Below are positions 2,005 through 36,251 of a stretch of 64,000 nucleotides of DNA, in pieces (the stretch's first letter is position 1; each line of letters begins with the position of its first letter). The position numbers and the translations under genes were made by a program. The stretch is from Escherichia phage RB3: sequence record KM606994; one strand, 5' to 3'. The notes under the pieces were generated by a model. It did not search any database. It saw nothing but the letters and a program-made list of their open reading frames with translations, and was not told the DNA's origin.

Positions 2005-3205
2005 ATTTTGTAATAATGTCAAACTGTTCTTTAAAGCAGAAGCTTGAATCTTGATGCTGATACAAAAATTCATATGCTTTTTCTCGCTCACGGTCATAAA
2101 GAGCTCGGTCAGATGACAGTTCTTTAATACGCTCGAATGTTGATTCCATGTCATTTTCATCAAACCAAATGATACCGCTATCATGCGAGGTCAAAGGAGT
2201 ATTATCAACACGGAATTTTAAATTATCACCCGTTGATTTCCAGAAAACAGGAATTGTACCGCAAGCACCTAATTCAAGATGAGTATATTCGAGTGAGCGT
2301 TGTAGATATTTTTTATCCAACTTACTCAACTGATAACCAAAACCGGATTTACTCATACGTTCAAGCATTTCGCTATTTACATAACGGTCAAGAATTTGCG
2401 TTGGCAAATTAGGAGCAATTTTAATTTGGTCTACTTGATGAAGACGATAATACTCGTATGGAATTCCTTTTTCTTTAATGGGAATGAACGCTGGAGAACG
2501 TTCCAGACCTTCCATAATAGTACTTAGTCCTGCAGGTTTAAGATGTTTTTCATGAAAATCAAACATCTGATAAAAACCTTTCCACGTAGTCGTACGACCA
2601 ATCCAACGGTTAATATTCATGTTAATTTCAGAAACATCTTTCCAGTAGGTTGACCGAACCTTCGCAATATCCATAGGAGGCTGAAAGTTATATACGGTCG
2701 GTGCTTCTTCAATATCATCAAACAGAGAAACTGTTTCAGGATACCATTCTTTCATCAGAACTTTATTAAAATCGCCATTATCAGAATGACTAAAAATAAC
2801 ATCAGCTCGACGAACAGTTTCTTCTAATCCCAAATTTCGACGCAAAGAAAGAGAAGAATGGTCATGTTGATAAACTACAACACGAACCGAAGGTTTAATG
2901 TTATCAATAATTTTTTTATAGTTATTAATTGTGTCTTCTTCGACTGAAGTAGCAGGAACTGAATTGATAATTAGAATATCACAATCATTTACCAGCTTAA
3001 GTGTTTTATCGTATTCTTTTGCCAATAAAACCGGAATTGAAAATGATTTATAATCATGCGCGCAGTTACGAGTAAATGATTTATCTTTAGCATAAACCAA
3101 AGTTACTTCATGACCATTTTTAATAAACCAATCACGCTGCTCAAGAGAAAATTTAGTTACACCGCAACCTTCAAGACCTCGAGCCATAAAAATACATACT
3201 TTCAT
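2003..3205 (-). CDS. a-gt: DNA alpha-glucosyltransferase
   Basis: 400 aa; near full-length match to my memory of T4 alpha-glucosyltransferase (MKVCIFMARGLEGCGVTKFSLEQRDWFIKNGHEVTLVYAKDK...). Confidence 0.9.
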   Translation of the reverse strand: MKVCIFMARGLEGCGVTKFSLEQRDWFIKNGHEVTLVYAKDKSFTRNCAHDYKSFSIPVLLAKEYDKTLKLVNDCDILIINSVPATSVEEDTINNYKKIIDNIKPSVRVVVYQHDHSSLSLRRNLGLEETVRRADVIFSHSDNGDFNKVLMKEWYPETVSLFDDIEEAPTVYNFQPPMDIAKVRSTYWKDVSEINMNINRWIGRTTTWKGFYQMFDFHEKHLKPAGLSTIMEGLERSPAFIPIKEKGIPYEYYRLHQVDQIKIAPNLPTQILDRYVNSEMLERMSKSGFGYQLSKLDKKYLQRSLEYTHLELGACGTIPVFWKSTGDNLKFRVDNTPLTSHDSGIIWFDENDMESTFERIKELSSDRALYDREREKAYEFLYQHQDSSFCFKEQFDIITK

Positions 3206-3255
3206 TTAATATCCTCATTGTTTTGGTTTATTTTACCAAAAATTTATAAAGCAAT

Positions 3256-3275
3256 ATAGGAGCCGAAGCTCCTAT
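3256..3275 (-). promoter_or_regulatory. Intercistronic UUCG hairpin upstream of a-gt
   Basis: Plus strand ataggagccgaagctcctat, an 8-bp stem with a cgaa/UUCG loop. Confidence 0.55.
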
Positions 3276-3448
3276 CCGCATAATACGCCATACAAAGGCT
3301 CGTTAGAGCTTCTAAATTTTATACGCTTATATGTTATAGTTCCTTCTGCTTTAGCTTTATCATGAGACTCTTTAAAGCGTCTCATCATTTCTACTTTAGA
3401 GGAACGAATTTTATTATAATCTATTTCAGAAGTCTGGGTGTTCATCTT

Positions 3449-3655
3449 TCACAGTTGCCACCATTTTTTGACTTGGTAAGAATCAACCCACACTTTCATA
3501 TTAGGGTCTGCTCTTACAATGGGAGGATTAACTTCTTTAATTGAACTATCGTGGTATTCTTTTTCAGAAATTTTCACACAAAGATGACCATTCAAAGATT
3601 CAGTAAATCCTGCATTAATTTTAAGACGCTTGAATTTTACGTGTGTAAGCATCAA
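3449..3655 (-). CDS. Hypothetical small protein
   Basis: 68-aa ORF in the a-gt/55 intergenic block; overlaps the next ORF by 35 nt. Confidence 0.3.
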   Translation of the reverse strand: MMLTHVKFKRLKINAGFTESLNGHLCVKISEKEYHDSSIKEVNPPIVRADPNMKVWVDSYQVKKWWQL

Positions 3656-3938
3656 TCATATCCTCAATCTGCGATCTAGTAGTCTTCCAAAGAATACTGA
3701 TGAGTTCATCGTTATATGGCTGTTTTAGAATATCCCGACTTTTCTTGATAGCATATTCGTATTGAGCAAAATTATTATTTTCAGCTGCAATCTGAGCGTG
3801 CTTATAAAGACGATTCAGTTCGCGTTTGTTTTTAGACAATAACTTATTTGCTTTTCTTTCTGCTTCAAGACGGTTCTTTTCTTCAATAGAAGAAATAAGC
3901 TTTTCCACTTCATCATTAATTTCGGGTTTATCAGTCAT
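3621..3938 (-). CDS. Hypothetical protein, predicted helical
   Basis: 105-aa ORF, charged and helical (EEKNRLEAERKANKLL). Confidence 0.5.
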   Translation of the reverse strand: MTDKPEINDEVEKLISSIEEKNRLEAERKANKLLSKNKRELNRLYKHAQIAAENNNFAQYEYAIKKSRDILKQPYNDELISILWKTTRSQIEDMIDAYTRKIQAS

Positions 3939-6920: not shown

Positions 6921-7133
6921 CTATTCCTTACTAAGAGCAGCATTCAGCTTGTTAGTAATTTTATCCAAACGTTCATTGAACTCGCTAGAAGATAGTCCTT
7001 TTTCTGGAGAAATCAAACTAATCACGAAAAATATAGCAATAAAAGGAATAAGGAAAATAGCTCCAACTGCCATAAACAAAAAGAATGTTACAGTTGTAAG
7101 AAAATCAGCTAAACCTTTACGAAATTTATACAT
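6921..7133 (-). CDS. Small hydrophobic membrane protein
   Basis: 70 aa with one long hydrophobic segment (VTFFLFMAVGAIFLIPFIAIFFVISLI). Confidence 0.5.
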   Translation of the reverse strand: MYKFRKGLADFLTTVTFFLFMAVGAIFLIPFIAIFFVISLISPEKGLSSSEFNERLDKITNKLNAALSKE

Positions 7134-7248
7134 ATTTTACCCTTAATTAATTAACCAAGCATTTATAAGCACTAAACTATATTGGGAATAAAATTCTGGA
7201 CCAAAATGAAAAATCATATCATTTATAGTATCCATAATGTAATTCAAT

Positions 7249-7719
7249 TTAATCATGTTTCCACACCCCATCGGTATTTGACCAAAGTCGCTGATTATCT
7301 GATCCTCGCCACAGCTTTTTAGTCGGAAGATTTTTCTCATACTTCCCATCAATAATAACATCAACATATTTAAGCATTTCTAGTTGTTTAATATCTTCAA
7401 ACTTATATCCTGTCCACAACCAAATGCTTTTATTGGGATAAAGATTTTTTACTGTTTGAACAATGCAATGAATAACATCTCGATTGTCAGGATAGAGAGG
7501 GTCTCCTCCGGTTATAGTCAATCCTTCTATATAATCATTATTCAAACATTCAATTAATTGTTCTAGTGTTTCACCAGTGAATGGAATACCATTTCTAGCA
7601 TTCCATGTTGATTTATTATAACACCCTTCGCATTTATGCAAACAACCTGTAACGAAAAGAACGACCCTGCATCCAGGGCCATTCACGAAGCAGCACGGGT
7701 ATATTCTGTCATAATTCAT
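7249..7719 (-). CDS. nrdG: Anaerobic ribonucleotide reductase activating protein (radical SAM)
   Basis: Cysteine cluster CxxxCxxC (GCLHKCEGC); start taken as the ATG at 7719, which forms an ATGA overlap with the upstream stop. Confidence 0.8.
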   Translation of the reverse strand: MNYDRIYPCCFVNGPGCRVVLFVTGCLHKCEGCYNKSTWNARNGIPFTGETLEQLIECLNNDYIEGLTITGGDPLYPDNRDVIHCIVQTVKNLYPNKSIWLWTGYKFEDIKQLEMLKYVDVIIDGKYEKNLPTKKLWRGSDNQRLWSNTDGVWKHD

Positions 7720-8546
7720 AATAATATCCAATTTTTCCAAGCTTCATCAGTAGAATTACAGCGTTTTAGTATAAGATGTCTAGAAACTTTTATGGCATTT
7801 GAGCACTTTTTAATTGAATCATATTTAATACCGTCAACTGAAACGGTTTTGCTAGTTGGAGAAATTTTTCCATACATTGGATTTTTTGAACCAACTTGAA
7901 GTCCTTTTAAAGCTTTTGAAAGCTTTTGTCTAGATTCCAATGACATGGGAGAATTCTTTTTACCTTCAATAATTCGCTTGCGATGAAGTTCGCGTTCTTC
8001 TTCACTCAAAGAATTGTAATATTTTTTAACACCGTTTGATATAGATAATTTATCTTTCTCAGACCGCTCTCCAGCTAATTTACTTCTAACATCTTTTCGC
8101 TTCATAGCTATGCTTACGGCTTTATTTAAATTTGCTTGATGCTCTGGCGTACGTTTATATTTCTTTAAAGCACGTGAAATAGCTATTTTAGTTTCTTCTG
8201 TTCTCTTTTTACCTTTATTTGCTAAACTATTTTTGCGGCGATGTTCAAGTGTCTGTTCATAGGCAGTTCCACCTTTTCCACCAGGTTTAATATTATATGT
8301 ATTTTCTTTTAGACAATACTCTTCGGTTACGAGTTCAGCTTCTTTATCATACATTTGTTTTTCATTATCAAAAACATGTAAAATTTCTTTATTAAAATTT
8401 TTTCTACCATATTTTAATAAAGCGGCACGAATCAATGTTCCTGACCCCATATAACCGTCATTTATGTTATCGGTGCTATGCGCACCGATATATTCCTTTG
8501 AATTAATTATATTTGTTATTTTATAAATTATATAATACCTATGCAT
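7716..8546 (-). CDS. GIY-YIG homing endonuclease, free-standing (seg-like)
   Basis: 276 aa; N-terminal YYIIYKITN...KEYIGAHS GIY-YIG module and basic C-terminal repeats; overlaps nrdD end by 8 nt and nrdG start by 4 nt. Confidence 0.8.
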   Translation of the reverse strand: MHRYYIIYKITNIINSKEYIGAHSTDNINDGYMGSGTLIRAALLKYGRKNFNKEILHVFDNEKQMYDKEAELVTEEYCLKENTYNIKPGGKGGTAYEQTLEHRRKNSLANKGKKRTEETKIAISRALKKYKRTPEHQANLNKAVSIAMKRKDVRSKLAGERSEKDKLSISNGVKKYYNSLSEEERELHRKRIIEGKKNSPMSLESRQKLSKALKGLQVGSKNPMYGKISPTSKTVSVDGIKYDSIKKCSNAIKVSRHLILKRCNSTDEAWKNWILL

Positions 8547-10356
8547 GTTTTACTCGTTTTACCATTTCTTTCATTTTACCTAAATTCCATGGGACAACGC
8601 TAGGAGTTCCAAGATATCCGCATGTTCTTCTTATTGTGTTCATCTTTTTGGGATCAGTTTCTCCACAAATAGAACAAACAAATCCGTTTTCAGTAGGAGT
8701 CATTTCATGGGTACTTCCGCATGTAAAACATTTATCTACTGGCATATTAACACCAAAATAATCTAAATGTTGTGCAGCATAATCCCATACGGCCTCAAGA
8801 CCCTTTAAGTTATTTTTCATATCAGGAAGTTCAACATAAGAAATGTGACCACCTGTCGCAATGAAATGATATGGCGCTTCACGAGAAATCTTTTCAAACG
8901 GAGTAATATTTTCTTCTACTGAAACATGGAAACTGTTAGTGTACCAACCTTTATCGGTAACATCTTTTACGCTTCCATATTTTTCTGTATCGAGTTTACA
9001 GAAGCGATAACAAAGGTTTTCAGCAGGAGTCGAATATAAACTAAAAGCAAATCCAGTTCTTTCAGTCCACTGTTTAAGATGAGCATTCATTTTAGTTAAA
9101 ATTTCCTGTCCAATATCACGACCGACAAGAATATTCAATTCATGAATACCAATGTATCCTAGGGACACTGAACTTCTACCGTTTTTAAATAACTCAATTA
9201 TGTCGTCATCAGGTTTAAGACGAACCCCGAATGCACCTTCTTGGTAAAGAATAGGAGCAACAGTAGCTTTAACTCCTTTTAAGGAACTAATTCTACACAT
9301 CAAGGCTTCAAAACACAGGTCCATTCGCTCATCAAACAATTCAGTAAATTTCTGTTCATTGAACTGTGTTCCAATATAAGAATCTAACGCGATGCGAGGA
9401 AGATTCAGTGTTACAACACCAAGATTATTACGTCCATCAAGAATTTCATTACCAGTCGAATCTTTCCATACGCTCAAGAAACTACGGCAACCCATTGGAG
9501 AAACAGGAACAGATGAACCAGTGATAGCTTTATTGTTCTTAGCTGAAATAATATCAGGATACATCCTTTTGCTTGCACACTCTAGAGCAAGCTGCTTAAT
9601 ATCATAGTTCGGATCGTCTTTGTAAAGATTAACGCCTTCTTCGACGAACATAACAAGCTTAGGAAAAATAGGAGTTATCCCATCACGACCGAGACCTTTA
9701 ATACGATTTTTCAGAATTGCTTTCTGAATCATTCGTTCAGTCCAGTCAGTTCCCGTACCAAATGTAATTGTTACAAAAGGAGTTTGTCCGTTTGAACTAA
9801 AGAGAGTATTTACTTCATATTCATAAGCTTGGAATGCATCGTATACGTCTTTTTCTGTTTTAGATTGAGCATAATTCAACGCATCGGCGATTTGCCATTT
9901 TTCTGCATCCTCAATATGTTTTGCATAGGTGCGTTTAACATAAGGAGAAAGTACTTTATCTACATTAGCAAAAGTCGTTCCGCCATATTGGTGAGAAGCA
10001 ACCTGTGCAGTAATTTGTGCCATAATTGCAGTAGCAACACCGATTGATTTAGGAGTTTCAATCTGCGCATTACCAAGCTTAAATCCGTTCTCAAGCATTC
10101 CTTTTAAATCTACTAAACAGCAATTAGTAAATGGAAGAGCAGGGGAATAATCAATATCATGGAAATGGATAATTCCGCTTTCATGCGCTTTCATAATAAA
10201 AGACGGGACCATATTTTTGGCAATGTGTTTAGACACAATACCAGCCATAAGGTCCCGTTGAGTTGGAAAAACACGAGAATCTTTATTAGCATTCTCGTTT
10301 AAAAGGTCTTTATTAGTTTTATGAATCAATCCTTCAATTTCTTTTTCAATTGTCAT
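8539..10356 (-). CDS. nrdD: Anaerobic ribonucleoside-triphosphate reductase
   Basis: 605 aa in one continuous ORF; C-terminal glycyl-radical motif RRTCGYLG and a Zn-ribbon cysteine set. Confidence 0.9.
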   Translation of the reverse strand: MTIEKEIEGLIHKTNKDLLNENANKDSRVFPTQRDLMAGIVSKHIAKNMVPSFIMKAHESGIIHFHDIDYSPALPFTNCCLVDLKGMLENGFKLGNAQIETPKSIGVATAIMAQITAQVASHQYGGTTFANVDKVLSPYVKRTYAKHIEDAEKWQIADALNYAQSKTEKDVYDAFQAYEYEVNTLFSSNGQTPFVTITFGTGTDWTERMIQKAILKNRIKGLGRDGITPIFPKLVMFVEEGVNLYKDDPNYDIKQLALECASKRMYPDIISAKNNKAITGSSVPVSPMGCRSFLSVWKDSTGNEILDGRNNLGVVTLNLPRIALDSYIGTQFNEQKFTELFDERMDLCFEALMCRISSLKGVKATVAPILYQEGAFGVRLKPDDDIIELFKNGRSSVSLGYIGIHELNILVGRDIGQEILTKMNAHLKQWTERTGFAFSLYSTPAENLCYRFCKLDTEKYGSVKDVTDKGWYTNSFHVSVEENITPFEKISREAPYHFIATGGHISYVELPDMKNNLKGLEAVWDYAAQHLDYFGVNMPVDKCFTCGSTHEMTPTENGFVCSICGETDPKKMNTIRRTCGYLGTPSVVPWNLGKMKEMVKRVKHA

Positions 10357-10826
10357 TTTAAACTCTTTCTAAGCTGCTTCTTAAATGAAGCTATTAACTG
10401 TGTTTTGGTGTCAGATTCATTATATTCAAATCCTCTTTGAAGCATCTCGGCCATCATTTCCTCTTTTCCTAAACGAGAAAATTCCTTTGATTTATCTCCA
10501 ACAAAGTTAGGGTGAATATTATTTTGGGTGTAATCGGATTTTAAATAAGTAAGTAAATTTTCTAACCATTCAAGATAATCAACACCTTGTCCCTTTAAGC
10601 CAGAACGATTAAATTTATGCTTCATTTGACCTTCTGCGGCATTGCAGAGATTACAAAGCAATCCACGCACCTTTCCTGCTTTTGGTCCATTTAATTCATG
10701 GTCATGGTCGAGGTGATTAGCTTGAACATCAGGATTTAGTTCTCGTTGGCAAATTAAGCATTTACCGTTTTGTGCATTATAAAATTTTTGTTTTTCTTCT
10801 TTGTATAATTTGCCAGTCAATAACAT
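10353..10826 (-). CDS. 49: Endonuclease VII (Holliday junction resolvase)
   Basis: 157 aa; sequence (MLLTGKLYKEEKQKFY...CLICQREL...HLDHDHE) matches my memory of T4 gp49. Confidence 0.9.
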   Translation of the reverse strand: MLLTGKLYKEEKQKFYNAQNGKCLICQRELNPDVQANHLDHDHELNGPKAGKVRGLLCNLCNAAEGQMKHKFNRSGLKGQGVDYLEWLENLLTYLKSDYTQNNIHPNFVGDKSKEFSRLGKEEMMAEMLQRGFEYNESDTKTQLIASFKKQLRKSLK

Positions 10827-18401: not shown

Positions 18402-19128
18402 TTAGGATTCTTCTAAATGTCTTTTCTGAAAAGTTGATACCATACTACGATACGGTTCATTTGGATACCCGTGTTTTATAGCTTCCTTTGTAAATTTTCT
18501 CCATCCATATTTAGTTTTTTTCCAAAGCTCGAATAATTCATCTTCATATTGCCATATAGTTAAATGAGAACGCTTTGCAGCTTTAATTCCATTAATATGC
18601 TTTTCTTTTACTACAGGATTGCTTAGTTTCTTTTTAATAATATTACTAACTTTTCTAACAAAAACTGGGTCCTTATATCGTTGCGAAGTTTTTATTGAAG
18701 TGTTTAATTTAGCTTCCGGCGTGGATGTAACCTCTTTCATCTTTTTCTTCATATGCTGTATATGATTAGGATTTTTCCATAAATTTATAGAATGCTTTTT
18801 GCATTTTATCCTAGTTTCATCTGCAACCTTTCCTCCTTCACCCCCCCCCCCCGTATGACAGGTTAACACAGTTTTTTCCATATTTCAATTTACCTGCCAT
18901 GATATATAATATTTCAGCTTGTACCATTTTATCATAATTATCAAAAACTTCTAAAACCGTTTTTGATAATATGTGGTCATTTGACACTTTTACACGTTCT
19001 ATATAATTTCCACTACCAACATACGAATCATTGATGTTATTAGTTATATGTCGACCATAATAGTATTTCTTAATACCTGTCTTTAAATTTAATATTTCAG
19101 TTTTATAGATAGTAAAATATTTTTTCAT
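18402..19128 (-). pseudogene. GIY-YIG homing endonuclease gene interrupted by a frameshift at a 12-nt homopolymer
   Basis: N-terminal ORF (18838-19128) has the GIY-YIG module YFTIYKT...KKYYYGRH and ends GGGG-stop; C-terminal ORF (18402-18881) has basic repeats; C12 run at 18841-18852 joins them. Confidence 0.65.
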
Positions 19129-20210: not shown

Positions 20211-21257
20211 TCATTTATAATAACTTCGATGGTTTTCGAGATACACCTTCTCAAGGAAGTCATCCCAGAAACCCATGTCCACTTTTTGCTGCATACCGTT
20301 CTTAGAAGCTTCAGTAGATGCTGCTTCTACTTGATCGACCACATCTTCCAAAAACTCTTGAACTGTTTTAAATGGATGCTTACCCAACTTCACGTCGAGA
20401 ATAAATGGAGCATCTTGGAGTGGATAAACCAAGTCACCAGTTTTGTAAATTTCCAATAGTTGGAGTCCACCACGACAAGCATGACTCAGAGCTTTCCAGT
20501 CAATGCCTTCATTGGCTTCGGCCTTACGAGCGCGTTCACCATATTCAGCATCTAATTTGTTCAGTGACTGCTTAAGCTCAATAAGAGAAAGAGTTGTCTG
20601 ATATTTACGACCCAACACAGTGTAGAACGTTTGTGGGCCTGTTTTCTCATGATTATGGAACACCCATTCACAGAATTCGTTTTCTGGAAGACGATGCTTA
20701 ATATCTTCAACTTTAGTGCGACGCTGCTTAATGGAACCGTCTTCTTGGTAATCAACCCATTGCTCAGGGATTTGATTAACTACTTTCAATACATCGCGTA
20801 ATGCAGCCAAACGAGAACCCTTGACACCGTATTTAGAAGCTTGCTTGCGAACATATCCTAAATAGGATTTCATGTTAGTCGTATAAAAACGAGAACGGTT
20901 GTCTTGAATAAACTTCCACACATCAGGCAAATCAGATTTAACTACTAGTTCAGGTGGAGTATGAAGCATATCTAATGCTACAGTTTCACCATCTGCTGCT
21001 AATTTAAAGAAATACTTAAGACTATACAATTCGTGGTCAATATCATCTTTAGTGTTTTTAGATGATGTATTGTTAGTGTTTTTACTCATATGCTCTTTAA
21101 CATTTCCGATAAGAATATCGCGAGCAGGAGGAACAAAGATTTCTTTAAAATCTACATCAGATTCTGGAGTAGAAGTTCCATAAAGATGACTACCAAAATA
21201 AGACTTAACTACAGTTTTCATTATTAGACCTTTCATAATCTTCATTAAATTGTACAA
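20211..21257 (-). CDS. Nucleotidyltransferase-fold protein (pol-beta superfamily-like)
   Basis: 348 aa; N-terminal GS-x-YG-x5-SDVDF signature; start may be the internal Met near 21221. Confidence 0.5.
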   Translation of the reverse strand: MYNLMKIMKGLIMKTVVKSYFGSHLYGTSTPESDVDFKEIFVPPARDILIGNVKEHMSKNTNNTSSKNTKDDIDHELYSLKYFFKLAADGETVALDMLHTPPELVVKSDLPDVWKFIQDNRSRFYTTNMKSYLGYVRKQASKYGVKGSRLAALRDVLKVVNQIPEQWVDYQEDGSIKQRRTKVEDIKHRLPENEFCEWVFHNHEKTGPQTFYTVLGRKYQTTLSLIELKQSLNKLDAEYGERARKAEANEGIDWKALSHACRGGLQLLEIYKTGDLVYPLQDAPFILDVKLGKHPFKTVQEFLEDVVDQVEAASTEASKNGMQQKVDMGFWDDFLEKVYLENHRSYYK

Positions 21258-21984
21258 TCAATCGATGATAATTAGATTTTGGATATCCTAATTTACTTAT
21301 ATAAGTTCCGAATGACCCACGTTTAGGTCTATTTAATTTAATCCATAACTTATAAAGTAAGTCATAGTCTTGCCAATGTTTACCAGTTCTTTGTCTAATT
21401 TTAGATGAATTTGATTGTTTCTTTTTAGTTTCAAAATTATTCAAAGATTTTTTGACTGCAGCAGAGTGTTTTTCTTTAACTCCCGGTCGTTTAAAAGCAG
21501 CTTTCACCCCTTTAGATATTTTTTCTTTAACTTCCGGTTTGTTTTGTGCTTCTAACTGGGATTCTGAAATTTTAGCCCTTATTTCAGGAAGACTTAATGT
21601 TATCGAACGTTTTTCTCTGTATTCATTAGACTTCCACATTTCTTTCATTGTATTAGAATGTATTTTTGAAAATTTTTCTCTAACTAACTGATATCCTCTT
21701 GAAGTTAATTTGAGATTTCTTCCTAAAGAATCTTCTCCAAAATTATAAAATGACCACCATGCATAAATTAATCCAGGCGAATTATAATGAATTTTAGCTA
21801 AAAGCCAATGGGCTATAAAATGCTCTCTAGCTGTTAATAAAACTAGATTATCAGAATCATCATTACCACCAATACAAGATGGAATAATATGATGCTTTTC
21901 CGTATAAAAATTTAATTTAGATTTATCTAATTTTCTGAGTTTTCCTTTCTTAATTAAATTATTATATACTTTAGTATAATTCAT
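21205..21984 (-). CDS. mobD: HNH homing endonuclease (mob-like)
   Basis: 259 aa; HNH motif EKHHIIPSCIGGNDDSDNLVLLTAREHFIAHW and a basic C-terminus; symbol by synteny. Confidence 0.65.
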   Translation of the reverse strand: MNYTKVYNNLIKKGKLRKLDKSKLNFYTEKHHIIPSCIGGNDDSDNLVLLTAREHFIAHWLLAKIHYNSPGLIYAWWSFYNFGEDSLGRNLKLTSRGYQLVREKFSKIHSNTMKEMWKSNEYREKRSITLSLPEIRAKISESQLEAQNKPEVKEKISKGVKAAFKRPGVKEKHSAAVKKSLNNFETKKKQSNSSKIRQRTGKHWQDYDLLYKLWIKLNRPKRGSFGTYISKLGYPKSNYHRLIVQFNEDYERSNNENCS

Positions 21985-35423: not shown

Positions 35424-35499
35424 TGGTCGAGGCAGTAGGGATCGAACCTACGACCCAGGACTTAGAAGGTCCTTGCTCTTCCTTCTGAGCTATGCCTCG
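35424..35499 (-). tRNA. tRNA-Arg (anticodon UCU)
   Basis: Hand-folded cloverleaf; anticodon loop CUUCUAA; CCA encoded. Confidence 0.8.
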
Positions 35500-35503
35500 T
35501 ATT

Positions 35504-35578
35504 TGGCGGACGTGATAGGATTCGAACCTATAACCAATCGCTTAACAGGCGATCGCTCTGCCATTGAGCTACACATCC
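35504..35578 (-). tRNA. tRNA-Asn (anticodon GUU)
   Basis: Hand-folded cloverleaf; anticodon loop CUGUUAA; CCA encoded. Confidence 0.7.
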
Positions 35579-35582
35579 AAAT

Positions 35583-35669
35583 TGGTGGGGAGTGATGGAG
35601 TCGAACCACCCGAGTCGCAATGACAATGGATTTACAGTCCACACCGCTACCTCTACGGGATAACTCCCC
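35583..35669 (-). tRNA. tRNA-Tyr (anticodon GUA), long variable arm
   Basis: 87 nt; anticodon loop CUGUAAA; T-arm GGTGG-TTCGACT-CCATC; CCA encoded. Confidence 0.65.
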
Positions 35670-35678
35670 TAATTAATT

Positions 35679-35753
35679 TGGTGGCCCTGGGTGGAATTGA
35701 ACCACCATCTGGCGATTATGAGTCGCTTGCTTGAACCTTCCAGCTACAGGGCC
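35679..35753 (-). tRNA. tRNA with CAU anticodon (Met or Ile2)
   Basis: Anticodon loop CUCAUAA; acceptor GGCCCTG/CAGGGCC; CCA encoded. Confidence 0.65.
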
Positions 35754-35754
35754 T

Positions 35755-35830
35755 TGGCGCTGATTGACGGAATCGAACCGCCGACATCCTCATTACAAGT
35801 GAGGTGCTCTACCTACTGAGCTAAATCAGC
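35755..35830 (-). tRNA. tRNA-Thr (anticodon UGU)
   Basis: Anticodon loop CUUGUAA; CCA encoded. Confidence 0.8.
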
Positions 35831-35835
35831 AAAAC

Positions 35836-35925
35836 TGGCGGAGGCGATAGGATTTGAACCTATGAGTCGCCGGAGCGACTGCCGGTTTTCAAGACCGGTG
35901 CATTAAACCACTCTGCCACGCCTCC
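35836..35925 (-). tRNA. tRNA-Ser (anticodon UGA), long variable arm
   Basis: 90 nt; anticodon loop CUUGAAA; CCA encoded. Confidence 0.8.
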
Positions 35926-35927
35926 AG

Positions 35928-36001
35928 TCTCCATACAAGGATTTGAACCTTGGACCTCCTGATCCCAAATCAGGCGCTCTACCAAACTGAGCTACACGGA
36001 G
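35928..36001 (-). tRNA. tRNA-Pro (anticodon UGG)
   Basis: Anticodon loop UUUGGGA; CCA not encoded. Confidence 0.75.
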
Positions 36002-36011
36002 TAAATTAAAT

Positions 36012-36085
<74 letters not shown>

Positions 36086-36090
36086 AAATT

Positions 36091-36177
36091 TGGTGCGAGA
36101 AGTGGGACTCGAACCCACAAGGAAATCATTCCGCAGCATTTTAAGTGCTGTGCCTTTACCAATTTGACCATTCTCGC
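36091..36177 (-). tRNA. tRNA-Leu (anticodon UAA), long variable arm
   Basis: 87 nt; anticodon loop CUUAAAA; CCA encoded. Confidence 0.8.
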
Positions 36178-36179
36178 GC

Positions 36180-36251
36180 TGGGAATAAAGGACTCGAACC
36201 TTTGCATCCTGGAATCAAAATCCAGTGCCTTACCAACTTGGCTAATTCCCA
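36180..36251 (-). tRNA. tRNA-Gln (anticodon UUG)
   Basis: Anticodon loop UUUUGAU; CCA not encoded. Confidence 0.75.

What the first reader, a model, noticed from the sequence alone, without database searches (positions are those of the whole stretch)
7716..8546. Intact free-standing GIY-YIG homing endonuclease wedged between nrdD and nrdG
A 276-aa GIY-YIG ORF overlaps the 3' end of nrdD by 8 nt and the nrdG start by an ATGA junction, the typical footprint of an intronless homing endonuclease inserted between conserved genes. As I recall T4, its nrdD carries a group I intron with a degenerate homing endonuclease, whereas here nrdD is a single uninterrupted ORF. With the frameshifted GIY-YIG gene and the HNH gene, this makes three homing-endonuclease-type genes in the window.
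Basis: partly seen in the sequence, partly recalled or inferred. Interest (0 to 1): 0.5.

Follow-up and report, generated by a model that had tools for sequence, protein, structure and literature searches.

The report
Known phage homing endonuclease gene segH

Summary
A 276-aa ORF at 7716..8546 (-) overlaps the nrdD stop by 8 nt and the nrdG start by ATGA.

The window is phage RB5/6/7/9/10, species Tequatrovirus RB3. The ORF is 276/276 identical to SegH of phage RB3 (GenBank AY262138.2). That is the free-standing GIY-YIG homing endonuclease named by Sandegren, Nord and Sjöberg (NAR 2005), which replaces T4's mobC at this locus.

The predicted fold and domains match I-TevI:
- an N-terminal GIY-YIG catalytic domain;
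- a NUMOD3 repeat;
- a C-terminal helix-turn-helix.

The locus is polymorphic. About 85% of related phages have nothing there, about 10% carry segH, and a few carry mobC.

My own addition concerns fixed differences between segH-bearing and segH-free genomes. All 34 lie in the last 68 nt of nrdD and in nt 12-30 of nrdG. This recoded junction travels with the gene and probably marks the target site.

T4's nrdD intron encodes the active I-TevII. The degenerate enzyme is I-TevIII, in nrdB.

Verdict: real, correctly interpreted, already known, low interest.

The parts
7716..8546 (-). segH coding sequence (276 aa plus TGA), a free-standing GIY-YIG homing endonuclease
   Evidence: ORF. 276/276 identity to SegH ABI48949.1 of phage RB3. 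The RB3 record matches window 10043..7325 with 1 mismatch in 2719 nt.
8262..8546 (-). N-terminal GIY-YIG catalytic domain (about aa 1-95), with invariant Y8, Y19, G21, E69, N85
   Evidence: Invariant columns in a 33-sequence alignment. Profile hit to the I-TevI catalytic domain 1MK0/1LN0, E 0.027-0.047. AF2 pLDDT above 92 for this domain, with a beta-beta-alpha-beta-alpha order. Foldseek top hits 1MK0/1LN0, probability 0.99-1.00, TM 0.59-0.61.
7863..7949 (-). NUMOD3 DNA-binding repeat (aa 200-228)
   Evidence: Pfam PF07460, E 3.1e-8, 33.8 bits against a 20.4-bit cut-off.
7728..7871 (-). C-terminal I-TevI-type helix-turn-helix DNA-binding module (aa 226-273)
   Evidence: Pfam PF20987 I-TevI_DNA-bd, E 3e-4, which is below the gathering score. 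Foldseek hit to the I-TevI DNA-binding domain 1I3J, probability 1.00.
8539..10356 (-). nrdD, anaerobic ribonucleotide reductase large subunit, intronless, 605 aa. Its last 8 nt overlap the segH start.
   Evidence: No group I intron found by Rfam.
7249..7719 (-). nrdG, the activase (156 aa from the ATG at 7719). Its ATG overlaps the segH TGA.
   Evidence: Same start as annotated in T6, PP01 and RB3.
8539..8606 (-). Recoded nrdD tail linked to segH. It holds 27 fixed nucleotide differences from segH-free genomes. The NrdD tail reads GTPSVVPWNLGKMKEMVKRVKHA* instead of GNPNERGFNLGKNKEIMHRVKHQ*.
7690..7708 (-). Recoded nrdG 5' segment linked to segH. It holds 7 fixed differences at nt +12..+30, and NrdG PCDF becomes PCCF.

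Best explanation
The ORF is segH, a free-standing (intronless) GIY-YIG homing endonuclease gene of T-even phages.

Shown here: it is identical to SegH of phage RB3. It occupies the nrdD/nrdG junction as a promoterless cassette in the same orientation as its neighbours. It overlaps both neighbours, so it is most likely co-transcribed with nrdD and translated by coupling.

Shown here: the protein is modular like I-TevI. It has an N-terminal GIY-YIG nuclease domain, a helical linker with a NUMOD3 repeat, and a C-terminal helix-turn-helix.

Inferred from what is established for Seg enzymes and from the 2005 paper's title: in a mixed infection with a segH-free relative, SegH makes a double-strand break in that relative's DNA near the nrdD/nrdG junction. 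Repair then uses the segH-bearing genome as template. This copies segH and its flanking markers into the recipient (intronless homing, also called marker exclusion).

Inferred from my comparison: the target lies in the roughly 95 bp spanning the last 68 nt of nrdD and the first 30 nt of nrdG of empty-site phages. The segH-bearing genome escapes self-cleavage because exactly this stretch is recoded, and the recoded stretch travels with the gene.
For: Identity.
- 276/276 aa identical to SegH ABI48949.1 (AY262138.2, 'Bacteriophage RB3 ... SegH (segH) gene'), with the same 8-nt and ATGA overlaps.
- The whole 2719-nt record matches the window with 1 mismatch.
- T6 and PP01 records annotate the orthologue as segH.

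Literature.
- bioRxiv 10.1101/2022.08.31.505936 states that T4 MobC lies between nrdD and nrdG and is replaced by the GIY-YIG gene segH in related genomes.

T4 locus. mobC sits at the same site.

Fold and domains.
- NUMOD3 passes the Pfam cut-off.
- PHROG 314 'homing endonuclease', E 2e-60.
- Foldseek's top four PDB hits are the I-TevI catalytic and DNA-binding domains.
- Y8, Y19, G21, E69 and N85 are invariant.

Polymorphism.
- 685 phage records carry the flanks.
- 71 records carry SegH at 90% aa identity or more.
- In an evenly spaced sample of 41 full-coverage rows, 35 are empty, 5 carry segH and 1 carries a mobC-type gene.

Signs of recent spread and constraint.
- segH differs by 0-9 nt in 831 among 7 phages, while their nrdD flanks differ by 3-8%.
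- pN/pS is 0.18.

Target inference.
- All 34 fixed differences between segH-bearing and segH-free genomes lie in nrdD -68..-1 and nrdG +12..+30. The scan covered the full 1818-nt nrdD and 725 nt downstream of the nrdG start.
- An independent replicate exists. Slopekvirus genomes with a 47-48% SegH homologue directly after nrdD also have a rewritten NrdD tail, and their SegH-free relatives do not.

Expression. No sigma-70-like, T4 late (TATAAATA) or MotA-box promoter precedes segH.
Against: - The primary paper could not be read in the held library. Cleavage activity, the mapped cleavage site and homing frequencies are taken from its title and from my memory, not checked.
- The I-TevI catalytic Arg (R27) has no alignable counterpart. 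The helix carrying it is absent from this Seg subfamily. The same is true of T4 SegE, which is listed as active (PMC2988022 Table 1), so this reads as a subfamily trait and not as decay.
- The Pfam GIY-YIG-type hit (SegE_GIY-YIG) and the I-TevI_DNA-bd hit fall below their gathering scores. The profile hit to 1MK0 is marginal (E 0.027).
- The review states that cleavage sites of free-standing endonucleases are often hundreds to thousands of bp from the gene. The target could therefore lie outside the 2.5 kb I compared.
- The recoded junction could also be hitch-hiking donor sequence and not an immunity determinant.
Confidence: 0.93

Rival explanations
1. It is an orthologue of T4 segD, as the GenBank records of RB5/6/7/9/10 and ACG-C40 label it.
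For: Of the T4 endonucleases compared here (SegD, SegE, I-TevII, MobC), SegD gives the longest match: 31.6% identity over 263 aa, E 1e-34.
Against: T4 segD lies between genes 23 and 24 and is transcribed against its neighbours (PMC2988022). This ORF lies between nrdD and nrdG in the same orientation as both. Identity to SegD is only 32%, against 100% to the deposited SegH. The 'segD' records also use a later start (735 nt, 244 aa). That start removes residues 1-32, which include the invariant Y8 and Y19-I-G21.
Confidence: 0.02
2. It is a decaying, non-functional remnant of a homing endonuclease gene, kept only because deleting it would damage nrdD or nrdG expression.
For: There is no alignable counterpart of I-TevI R27. 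The Pfam GIY-YIG-type hit is below its cut-off. The gene overlaps both neighbours, so a clean deletion is constrained. A second GIY-YIG gene in the same window is indeed frameshifted.
Against: The ORF is full length and intact in all 7 phages compared, with pN/pS of 0.18. All other catalytic-motif residues are invariant. The nuclease domain is modelled at pLDDT above 92. The sequence is identical to a protein that the literature calls a homing endonuclease. Near-identical copies sit in phages whose flanks differ by 3-8%, which argues for recent active spread.
Confidence: 0.04
3. The gene is retained mainly for a host-beneficial role, not for homing as such. Candidate roles are excluding competing phages' nrd alleles, or acting as a DNA-binding repressor as I-TevI does.
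For: I-TevI doubles as a transcriptional autorepressor, and Seg enzymes cause marker exclusion (PMC2988022). A 2026 paper shows T6 SegB aiding immune evasion (PMC13096335). SegH has an I-TevI-like DNA-binding domain.
Against: Nothing in the sequence points to such a role. No operator-like copy of the junction sequence was looked for, and no promoter precedes segH that it could repress. Presence in only about 10% of related phages argues against a strongly beneficial function.
Confidence: 0.1

Closest known systems
SegH of phages RB3 and T6 (Sandegren, Nord and Sjöberg, Nucleic Acids Res 2005; GenBank AY262138.2 and AY262137.2)
   Same: The protein is identical to RB3 SegH (276/276) and 98.2% identical to T6 SegH. 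The locus, the orientation, the 8-nt overlap with nrdD and the ATGA overlap with nrdG are all the same.
   Different: Nothing of substance differs. The window comes from RB5/6/7/9/10, which belong to the same species as RB3. Those records mislabel the gene 'segD' and give it a truncated start.
I-TevI (T4 td intron GIY-YIG homing endonuclease; PDB 1MK0, 1LN0, 1I3J)
   Same: The architecture is modular in the same way: an N-terminal GIY-YIG nuclease domain, an extended linker and a C-terminal helix-turn-helix DNA-binding domain. These are the top structural matches for both halves of the protein. The GIY/YIG tyrosines, the Glu and the Asn are conserved.
   Different: SegH is free-standing, not intron-encoded. 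Sequence identity is only about 23-26% over the catalytic domain. The helix that carries I-TevI R27 is missing and is replaced by a conserved H-x-T-x-N-x-x-D-x-Y-M-G-S-G segment. SegH has a long helical linker with a NUMOD3 repeat where I-TevI has a zinc finger.
T4 SegE and SegD (free-standing GIY-YIG Seg endonucleases; Pfam PF19835 SegE_GIY-YIG)
   Same: They belong to the same Seg-type subfamily of the catalytic domain. Identity is 45% to SegE over aa 4-109 and 32% to SegD over 263 aa. The 'YMGSG' segment and the lack of an R27-type helix are shared.
   Different: The loci and presumably the targets differ: segE lies at inh/uvsW and segD at 23/24. The C-terminal DNA-binding regions also differ.
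T4 MobC (HNH free-standing endonuclease at the nrdD/nrdG site)
   Same: It occupies the same intergenic site as a promoterless cassette in the same orientation (PMC2988022).
   Different: The protein family is unrelated: HNH, with no significant similarity to SegH. mobC genomes keep the 'empty-type' nrdD tail. mobC begins with a copy of the first seven nrdG codons. Activity is not determined for MobC (PMC2988022 Table 1).

Membership tests
SegH (orthologue of the 2005 RB3/T6 gene) | Sequence identity to the reference SegH protein (ABI48949.1) | tested here: met
   276/276 identical (H41). The DNA shows 1 mismatch in 2719 nt.
SegH (orthologue of the 2005 RB3/T6 gene) | Located between nrdD and nrdG, at the site held by mobC in T4 | tested here: met
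SegH (orthologue of the 2005 RB3/T6 gene) | Site-specific cleavage near its locus and homing in mixed infection | not testable with these tools
   This is experimental. Only the paper's title and secondary citations were available.
GIY-YIG nuclease superfamily (I-TevI-like) | GIY and YIG tyrosine motifs on a beta-hairpin | tested here: met
   I-I-Y8 and Y19-I-G21 are present. Y8, Y19 and G21 are invariant in 33 homologues and align to I-TevI GIY/YVG. Strands 4-12 and 18-25 appear in the model.
GIY-YIG nuclease superfamily (I-TevI-like) | Catalytic Glu (I-TevI E75) and Asn (I-TevI N90) | tested here: met
   E69 and N85 are invariant. N85 aligns to I-TevI N90 in both the HMM and MAFFT alignments, and it is the only invariant catalytic column across SegH, SegE, SegD, I-TevII and I-TevI. 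The E69-to-E75 match rests on the MAFFT alignment A2.
GIY-YIG nuclease superfamily (I-TevI-like) | Conserved catalytic Arg (I-TevI R27) on the first helix | tested here: inconclusive
   The I-TevI segment FEKRWKRHF falls in a gap of the SegH-family profile. SegH R40 is not conserved: it is Q in KM16 SegH and in T4 SegE, and K/H in the Slopekvirus homologues. The same gap is seen in T4 SegE, which is listed as active.
GIY-YIG nuclease superfamily (I-TevI-like) | Alpha/beta GIY-YIG fold | tested here: met
   The AF2 N-terminal domain has pLDDT above 92. Foldseek gives 1MK0/1LN0 at probability 0.99-1.00 and TM(target) 0.59-0.61. This rests on a predicted structure, not a solved one.
I-TevI-type modular DNA-binding region | NUMOD-type repeats plus a C-terminal helix-turn-helix | tested here: met
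   NUMOD3 passes the Pfam cut-off. I-TevI_DNA-bd scores 21.1 bits against a 27-bit cut-off. Foldseek gives 1I3J at probability 1.00 but TM 0.41.
Free-standing (intronless) homing endonuclease gene | Presence/absence polymorphism between otherwise collinear relatives | tested here: met
   The site is empty in T2 and in most relatives, holds segH in about 10% and mobC in a few.
Free-standing (intronless) homing endonuclease gene | Not embedded in an intron or intein | tested here: met
   It lies between two complete ORFs. There is no group I intron in the window.
T4 SegD orthologue (the label in the RB5 record) | Located between genes 23 and 24, in the opposite orientation, with high identity to T4 SegD | tested here: not met
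   Locus and orientation both differ. Identity is only 31.6%.

The most novel reading that the evidence does not exclude
segH does not move alone. It travels as a cassette with a recoded junction of about 95 bp (the last 68 nt of nrdD, which rewrite 12 of the 22 C-terminal NrdD residues after the glycyl-radical motif, plus nt 12-30 of nrdG). That junction is both the enzyme's target in naive genomes and its immunity determinant. The same solution, a SegH-family gene plus a rewritten NrdD tail, arose or spread independently in Slopekvirus. If so, the NrdD tail would be a recurrent landing pad for this endonuclease clade. Part of this may already be in the 2005 paper, which I could not read.
Probability: 0.5. 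Interest if true: 0.25.

Novelty: already known. Interest (0 to 1): 0.1.

Why it matters
It matters little as a discovery. SegH was named and characterised in 2005, and this copy is identical to the RB3 protein.

The practical value is in annotation. Several GenBank records (RB5/6/7/9/10, ACG-C40, SHFML-26, F2) give the gene a truncated start, two of the record sets examined (the RB5 group and ACG-C40) also label it 'segD', and all but F2 also shorten nrdG.

The comparison also gives a sharply bounded candidate for SegH's recognition and immunity region. All fixed differences fall within about 95 bp, and this could be tested directly.

Tried and rejected
- I tried to read the primary paper by PMC id, DOI and PubMed id. 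It is not held. Other papers that contain 'SegH' only cite it in their reference lists. The one exception is a bioRxiv preprint with a single descriptive sentence.
- Single-sequence phmmer against the PDB gave only noise. A 33-sequence profile was needed to reach I-TevI, and then only marginally.
- I looked for a dedicated promoter: sigma-70-like, the T4 late TATAAATA box, or a MotA box. None was found in front of segH.
- I considered whether the target could lie elsewhere in nrdD or nrdG. There are no fixed differences between segH-bearing and segH-free genomes anywhere else in the full nrdD or in the 725 nt from the nrdG start.
- I considered the 'segD' label and rejected it on locus, orientation and identity.
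- I considered decay and rejected it on ORF integrity, pN/pS and motif conservation.
- NCBIfam gave only a sub-threshold hit to 'group I intron endonuclease' (TIGR01453, 50.2 bits against a 56.05-bit cut-off).

Full report
**Observation**

The ORF listing gives an ATG-started 276-aa ORF at 7716..8546 on the minus strand. nrdD is one uninterrupted 605-aa ORF at 8539..10356 (-), so the two overlap by 8 nt. Bases 7716..7719 read tcat on the plus strand, which is ATGA on the minus strand. The segH TGA therefore overlaps the nrdG ATG at 7719.

Pfam confirms both neighbours:
- NrdD: NRDD 7e-172 over the full model, plus Gly_radical.
- NrdG: Fer4_12 2e-48.

Rfam finds no group I intron anywhere in the window.

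**Identity of the window and of the ORF**

Megablast of 7000..10400 against the phage collection gives 100% identity to phages RB5, RB6, RB7, RB9 and RB10. These belong to species Tequatrovirus RB3.

tblastn of the ORF gives 276/276 identity to GenBank AY262138.2, 'Bacteriophage RB3 NrdD ... SegH (segH) gene, complete cds; and NrdG'. That record annotates the same 8-nt and ATGA overlaps. It matches window 10043..7325 with one mismatch in 2719 nt. T6 (MH550421 and AY262137.2) and PP01 annotate the orthologue as segH.

[quoted passage not shown] It is cited in PMC2988022 and elsewhere. A bioRxiv preprint summarises the point: T4 MobC lies between nrdD and nrdG, and in some related genomes it is replaced by the GIY-YIG gene segH.

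The primary paper is not in the held library. From memory only, it reports in vitro cleavage close to the locus and homing in mixed infections. I could not verify the details.

**What T4 has**

In T4 the site holds the HNH gene mobC. T4's nrdD is split by a group I intron that encodes I-TevII. Table 1 of PMC2988022 lists I-TevII as GIY-YIG and active. The defective enzyme is I-TevIII, in the nrdB intron.

**The protein**

Family searches:
- Pfam: NUMOD3 (3e-8, above cut-off). I-TevI_DNA-bd and SegE_GIY-YIG both fall below their cut-offs.
- PHROG 314 'homing endonuclease', 2e-60.
- NCBIfam: a sub-threshold hit to 'group I intron endonuclease'.

Among 602 homologues I aligned 33. Y8, Y19, G21, E69 and N85 are invariant.

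The profile's only PDB hits are the I-TevI catalytic domain, 1MK0 and 1LN0, at E 0.027-0.047. The GIY/YIG hairpin aligns, and N85 aligns to N90. E69 aligns to E75 in the MAFFT alignment.

An AlphaFold2 model has mean pLDDT 83.9, and above 92 for residues 1-90. It shows a beta-beta-alpha-beta-alpha N-terminal domain, a helical middle and a small C-terminal alpha/beta module. Foldseek's top four PDB matches are the I-TevI catalytic domain (probability 0.99-1.00) and the I-TevI DNA-binding domain 1I3J (probability 1.00).

The one missing element is the helix carrying I-TevI R27. In SegH, in the SegH homologues and in T4 SegE and SegD, that segment is replaced by a shorter, conserved H-x-T-x-N-x-x-D-x-Y-M-G-S-G stretch. 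SegE is listed as active (PMC2988022 Table 1). I therefore read this as a trait of the Seg-type subfamily, not as decay.

Of the T4 endonucleases I compared, the closest matches to SegH are SegE (45% over the nuclease domain) and SegD (32% over 263 aa). The SegD similarity probably explains the 'segD' label in the RB5-type records.

**Polymorphism of the site**

A query made of the nrdD 3' 1000 nt joined to nrdG matches 685 phage records at 80% coverage or more. I took an evenly spaced sample of 41 full-coverage rows:

| Site content | Rows | Span of the match |
|---|---|---|
| Empty | 35 | 1470-1475 nt |
| segH | 5 | 2298 nt (one partial T6 record shorter) |
| mobC-type | 1 | 2097 nt |

SegH at 90% aa identity or more occurs in 71 records, which is about 10%. 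T2 is empty. Nine Tequatrovirus-like IMG/VR contigs are all empty, with the nrdD TGA overlapping the nrdG ATG. Some phages carry both the nrdD intron and segH, for example EC128 and F2.

**The junction that travels with segH (my analysis)**

I compared 7 segH-bearing genomes with 12 segH-free genomes (10 empty, 2 with mobC). The NrdD tail and the NrdG N-terminus sort perfectly with segH:

| | segH-free | segH-bearing |
|---|---|---|
| NrdD tail | GNPNERGFNLGKNKEIMHRVKHQ* | GTPSVVPWNLGKMKEMVKRVKHA* |
| NrdG N-terminus | PCDF | PCCF |

At the nucleotide level there are 34 fixed differences. All lie in nrdD -68..-1 or in nrdG +12..+30. In that stretch, between-group divergence is 0.37-0.48 and within-group divergence is 0.00-0.04. 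Everywhere else, between-group divergence equals within-group divergence. Extending the scan to the full 1818-nt nrdD and to 725 nt from the nrdG start adds no further fixed difference.

segH itself differs by only 0-9 nt in 831 among the 7 phages, with pN/pS of 0.18. Their nrdD flanks differ by 3-8%. This is the pattern expected of a recently spreading, constrained element embedded in freely recombining flanks.

An independent case supports the link to the NrdD tail. A 47-48% SegH homologue sits directly after nrdD in Slopekvirus genomes (Klebsiella phage KLB3 and IMG/VR locus L031). Those genomes have a rewritten NrdD tail, GAAERPMNKGKQNEIIHRVKHN*. Three relatives without a SegH match have GAPAVRGFNEGKNKEMMHRTKHQN*.

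My inference, not a demonstration, is that the recognition or cleavage site lies in this roughly 95-bp junction of naive genomes, just downstream of the codons for the glycyl-radical motif RRTCGYLG. On this reading, recoding protects the carrier. There is a caveat: the review notes that free-standing endonucleases often cut hundreds of bp or more from their gene. The recoded stretch could also be hitch-hiking donor DNA.

**Expression**

No sigma-70-like, late (TATAAATA) or MotA-type promoter precedes segH. The gene shares the orientation of its neighbours and overlaps both. [quoted passage not shown]

**Other endonuclease genes in the window**

- segH.
- A GIY-YIG-like gene split into two overlapping ORFs in different frames, at 18838..19128 and 18402..18881 (-).
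- HNH mobD at 21205..21984 (-).

**Verdict**

It is an already known gene, identical to the published RB3 SegH. Interest is low. The only added value is annotation corrections and a tightly bounded, testable candidate for the SegH target and immunity region.

Noticed in passing
window 18402..19128 (-): A GIY-YIG-like gene between nrdC.9 and nrdC.10 is split into two overlapping ORFs in different frames: 18838..19128 (96 aa, N-terminal Seg-type motif) and 18402..18881 (159 aa). The RB5 GenBank record annotates a single 720-nt CDS here (RB5_095, 'putative site-specific intron-like DNA endonuclease'). That does not fit the ORF structure I see.
   Followed up: partly
window 21205..21984 (-): An intact 259-aa HNH gene is annotated mobD in RB5. 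It is 40% identical to T4 MobC over the N-terminal 95 aa or so.
   Followed up: partly
window 7249..8546 (-), and GenBank records KM606995-KM606999, JN986846, KX130862, NC_054913: Annotation errors in public records. Where I checked the coordinates (KM606995, JN986846, KX130862, NC_054913), segH is given a late start (735 nt, 244 aa) that removes the GIY-YIG hairpin. In the first three of these, nrdG is also shortened to 393 nt. The gene is labelled 'segD' in all five RB records and in JN986846. T6, PP01, KIT06 and RB3 records use the full 831-nt and 471-nt genes.
   Followed up: yes
L004 (T4 NC_000866) 2907..3539, compared with window 7699..7719: T4 mobC begins MNYDRIY, the same seven residues as NrdG. 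Its ATG occupies the position of the nrdG ATG in empty-site phages (CAATGAATTATGA). The nrdG start is repeated at the mobC 3' end. mobC therefore looks as if it was inserted after nrdG codon 7 with duplication of the nrdG 5' end.
   Followed up: partly
window 8538..8546, compared with the empty-site nrdD tail (e.g. L005 3474..3482): The first nine bases of segH (ATGCATAGG, encoding M-H-R) are identical to the nine bases that encode M-H-R in the NrdD tail of empty-site phages, 12 nt upstream of the equivalent position. This may be a trace of how the insertion junction was built. It is unexplained.
   Followed up: no
L042 (Klebsiella phage KLB3, Slopekvirus) 2959..3810; L031 450..1301: A 283-aa SegH homologue (47-48% identity) sits about 54 nt downstream of nrdD in another genus. 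Small ORFs separate it from nrdG. It is accompanied by a rewritten NrdD C-terminal tail. Slopekvirus-like relatives L027, L028 and L032 have no SegH match and carry the other tail.
   Followed up: partly
window 35427..36251 (-): Ten tightly packed tRNA genes lie here, with gaps of 1-14 nt. There is therefore no endonuclease gene (segB in T4) inside this cluster.
   Followed up: no
H24, H33, H34, H37, H39, H40; L039 (phage F2): Some Tequatrovirus genomes carry both an interrupted nrdD with an extra homing-endonuclease gene (probably the I-TevII intron) and segH. The two elements are therefore not mutually exclusive.
   Followed up: no
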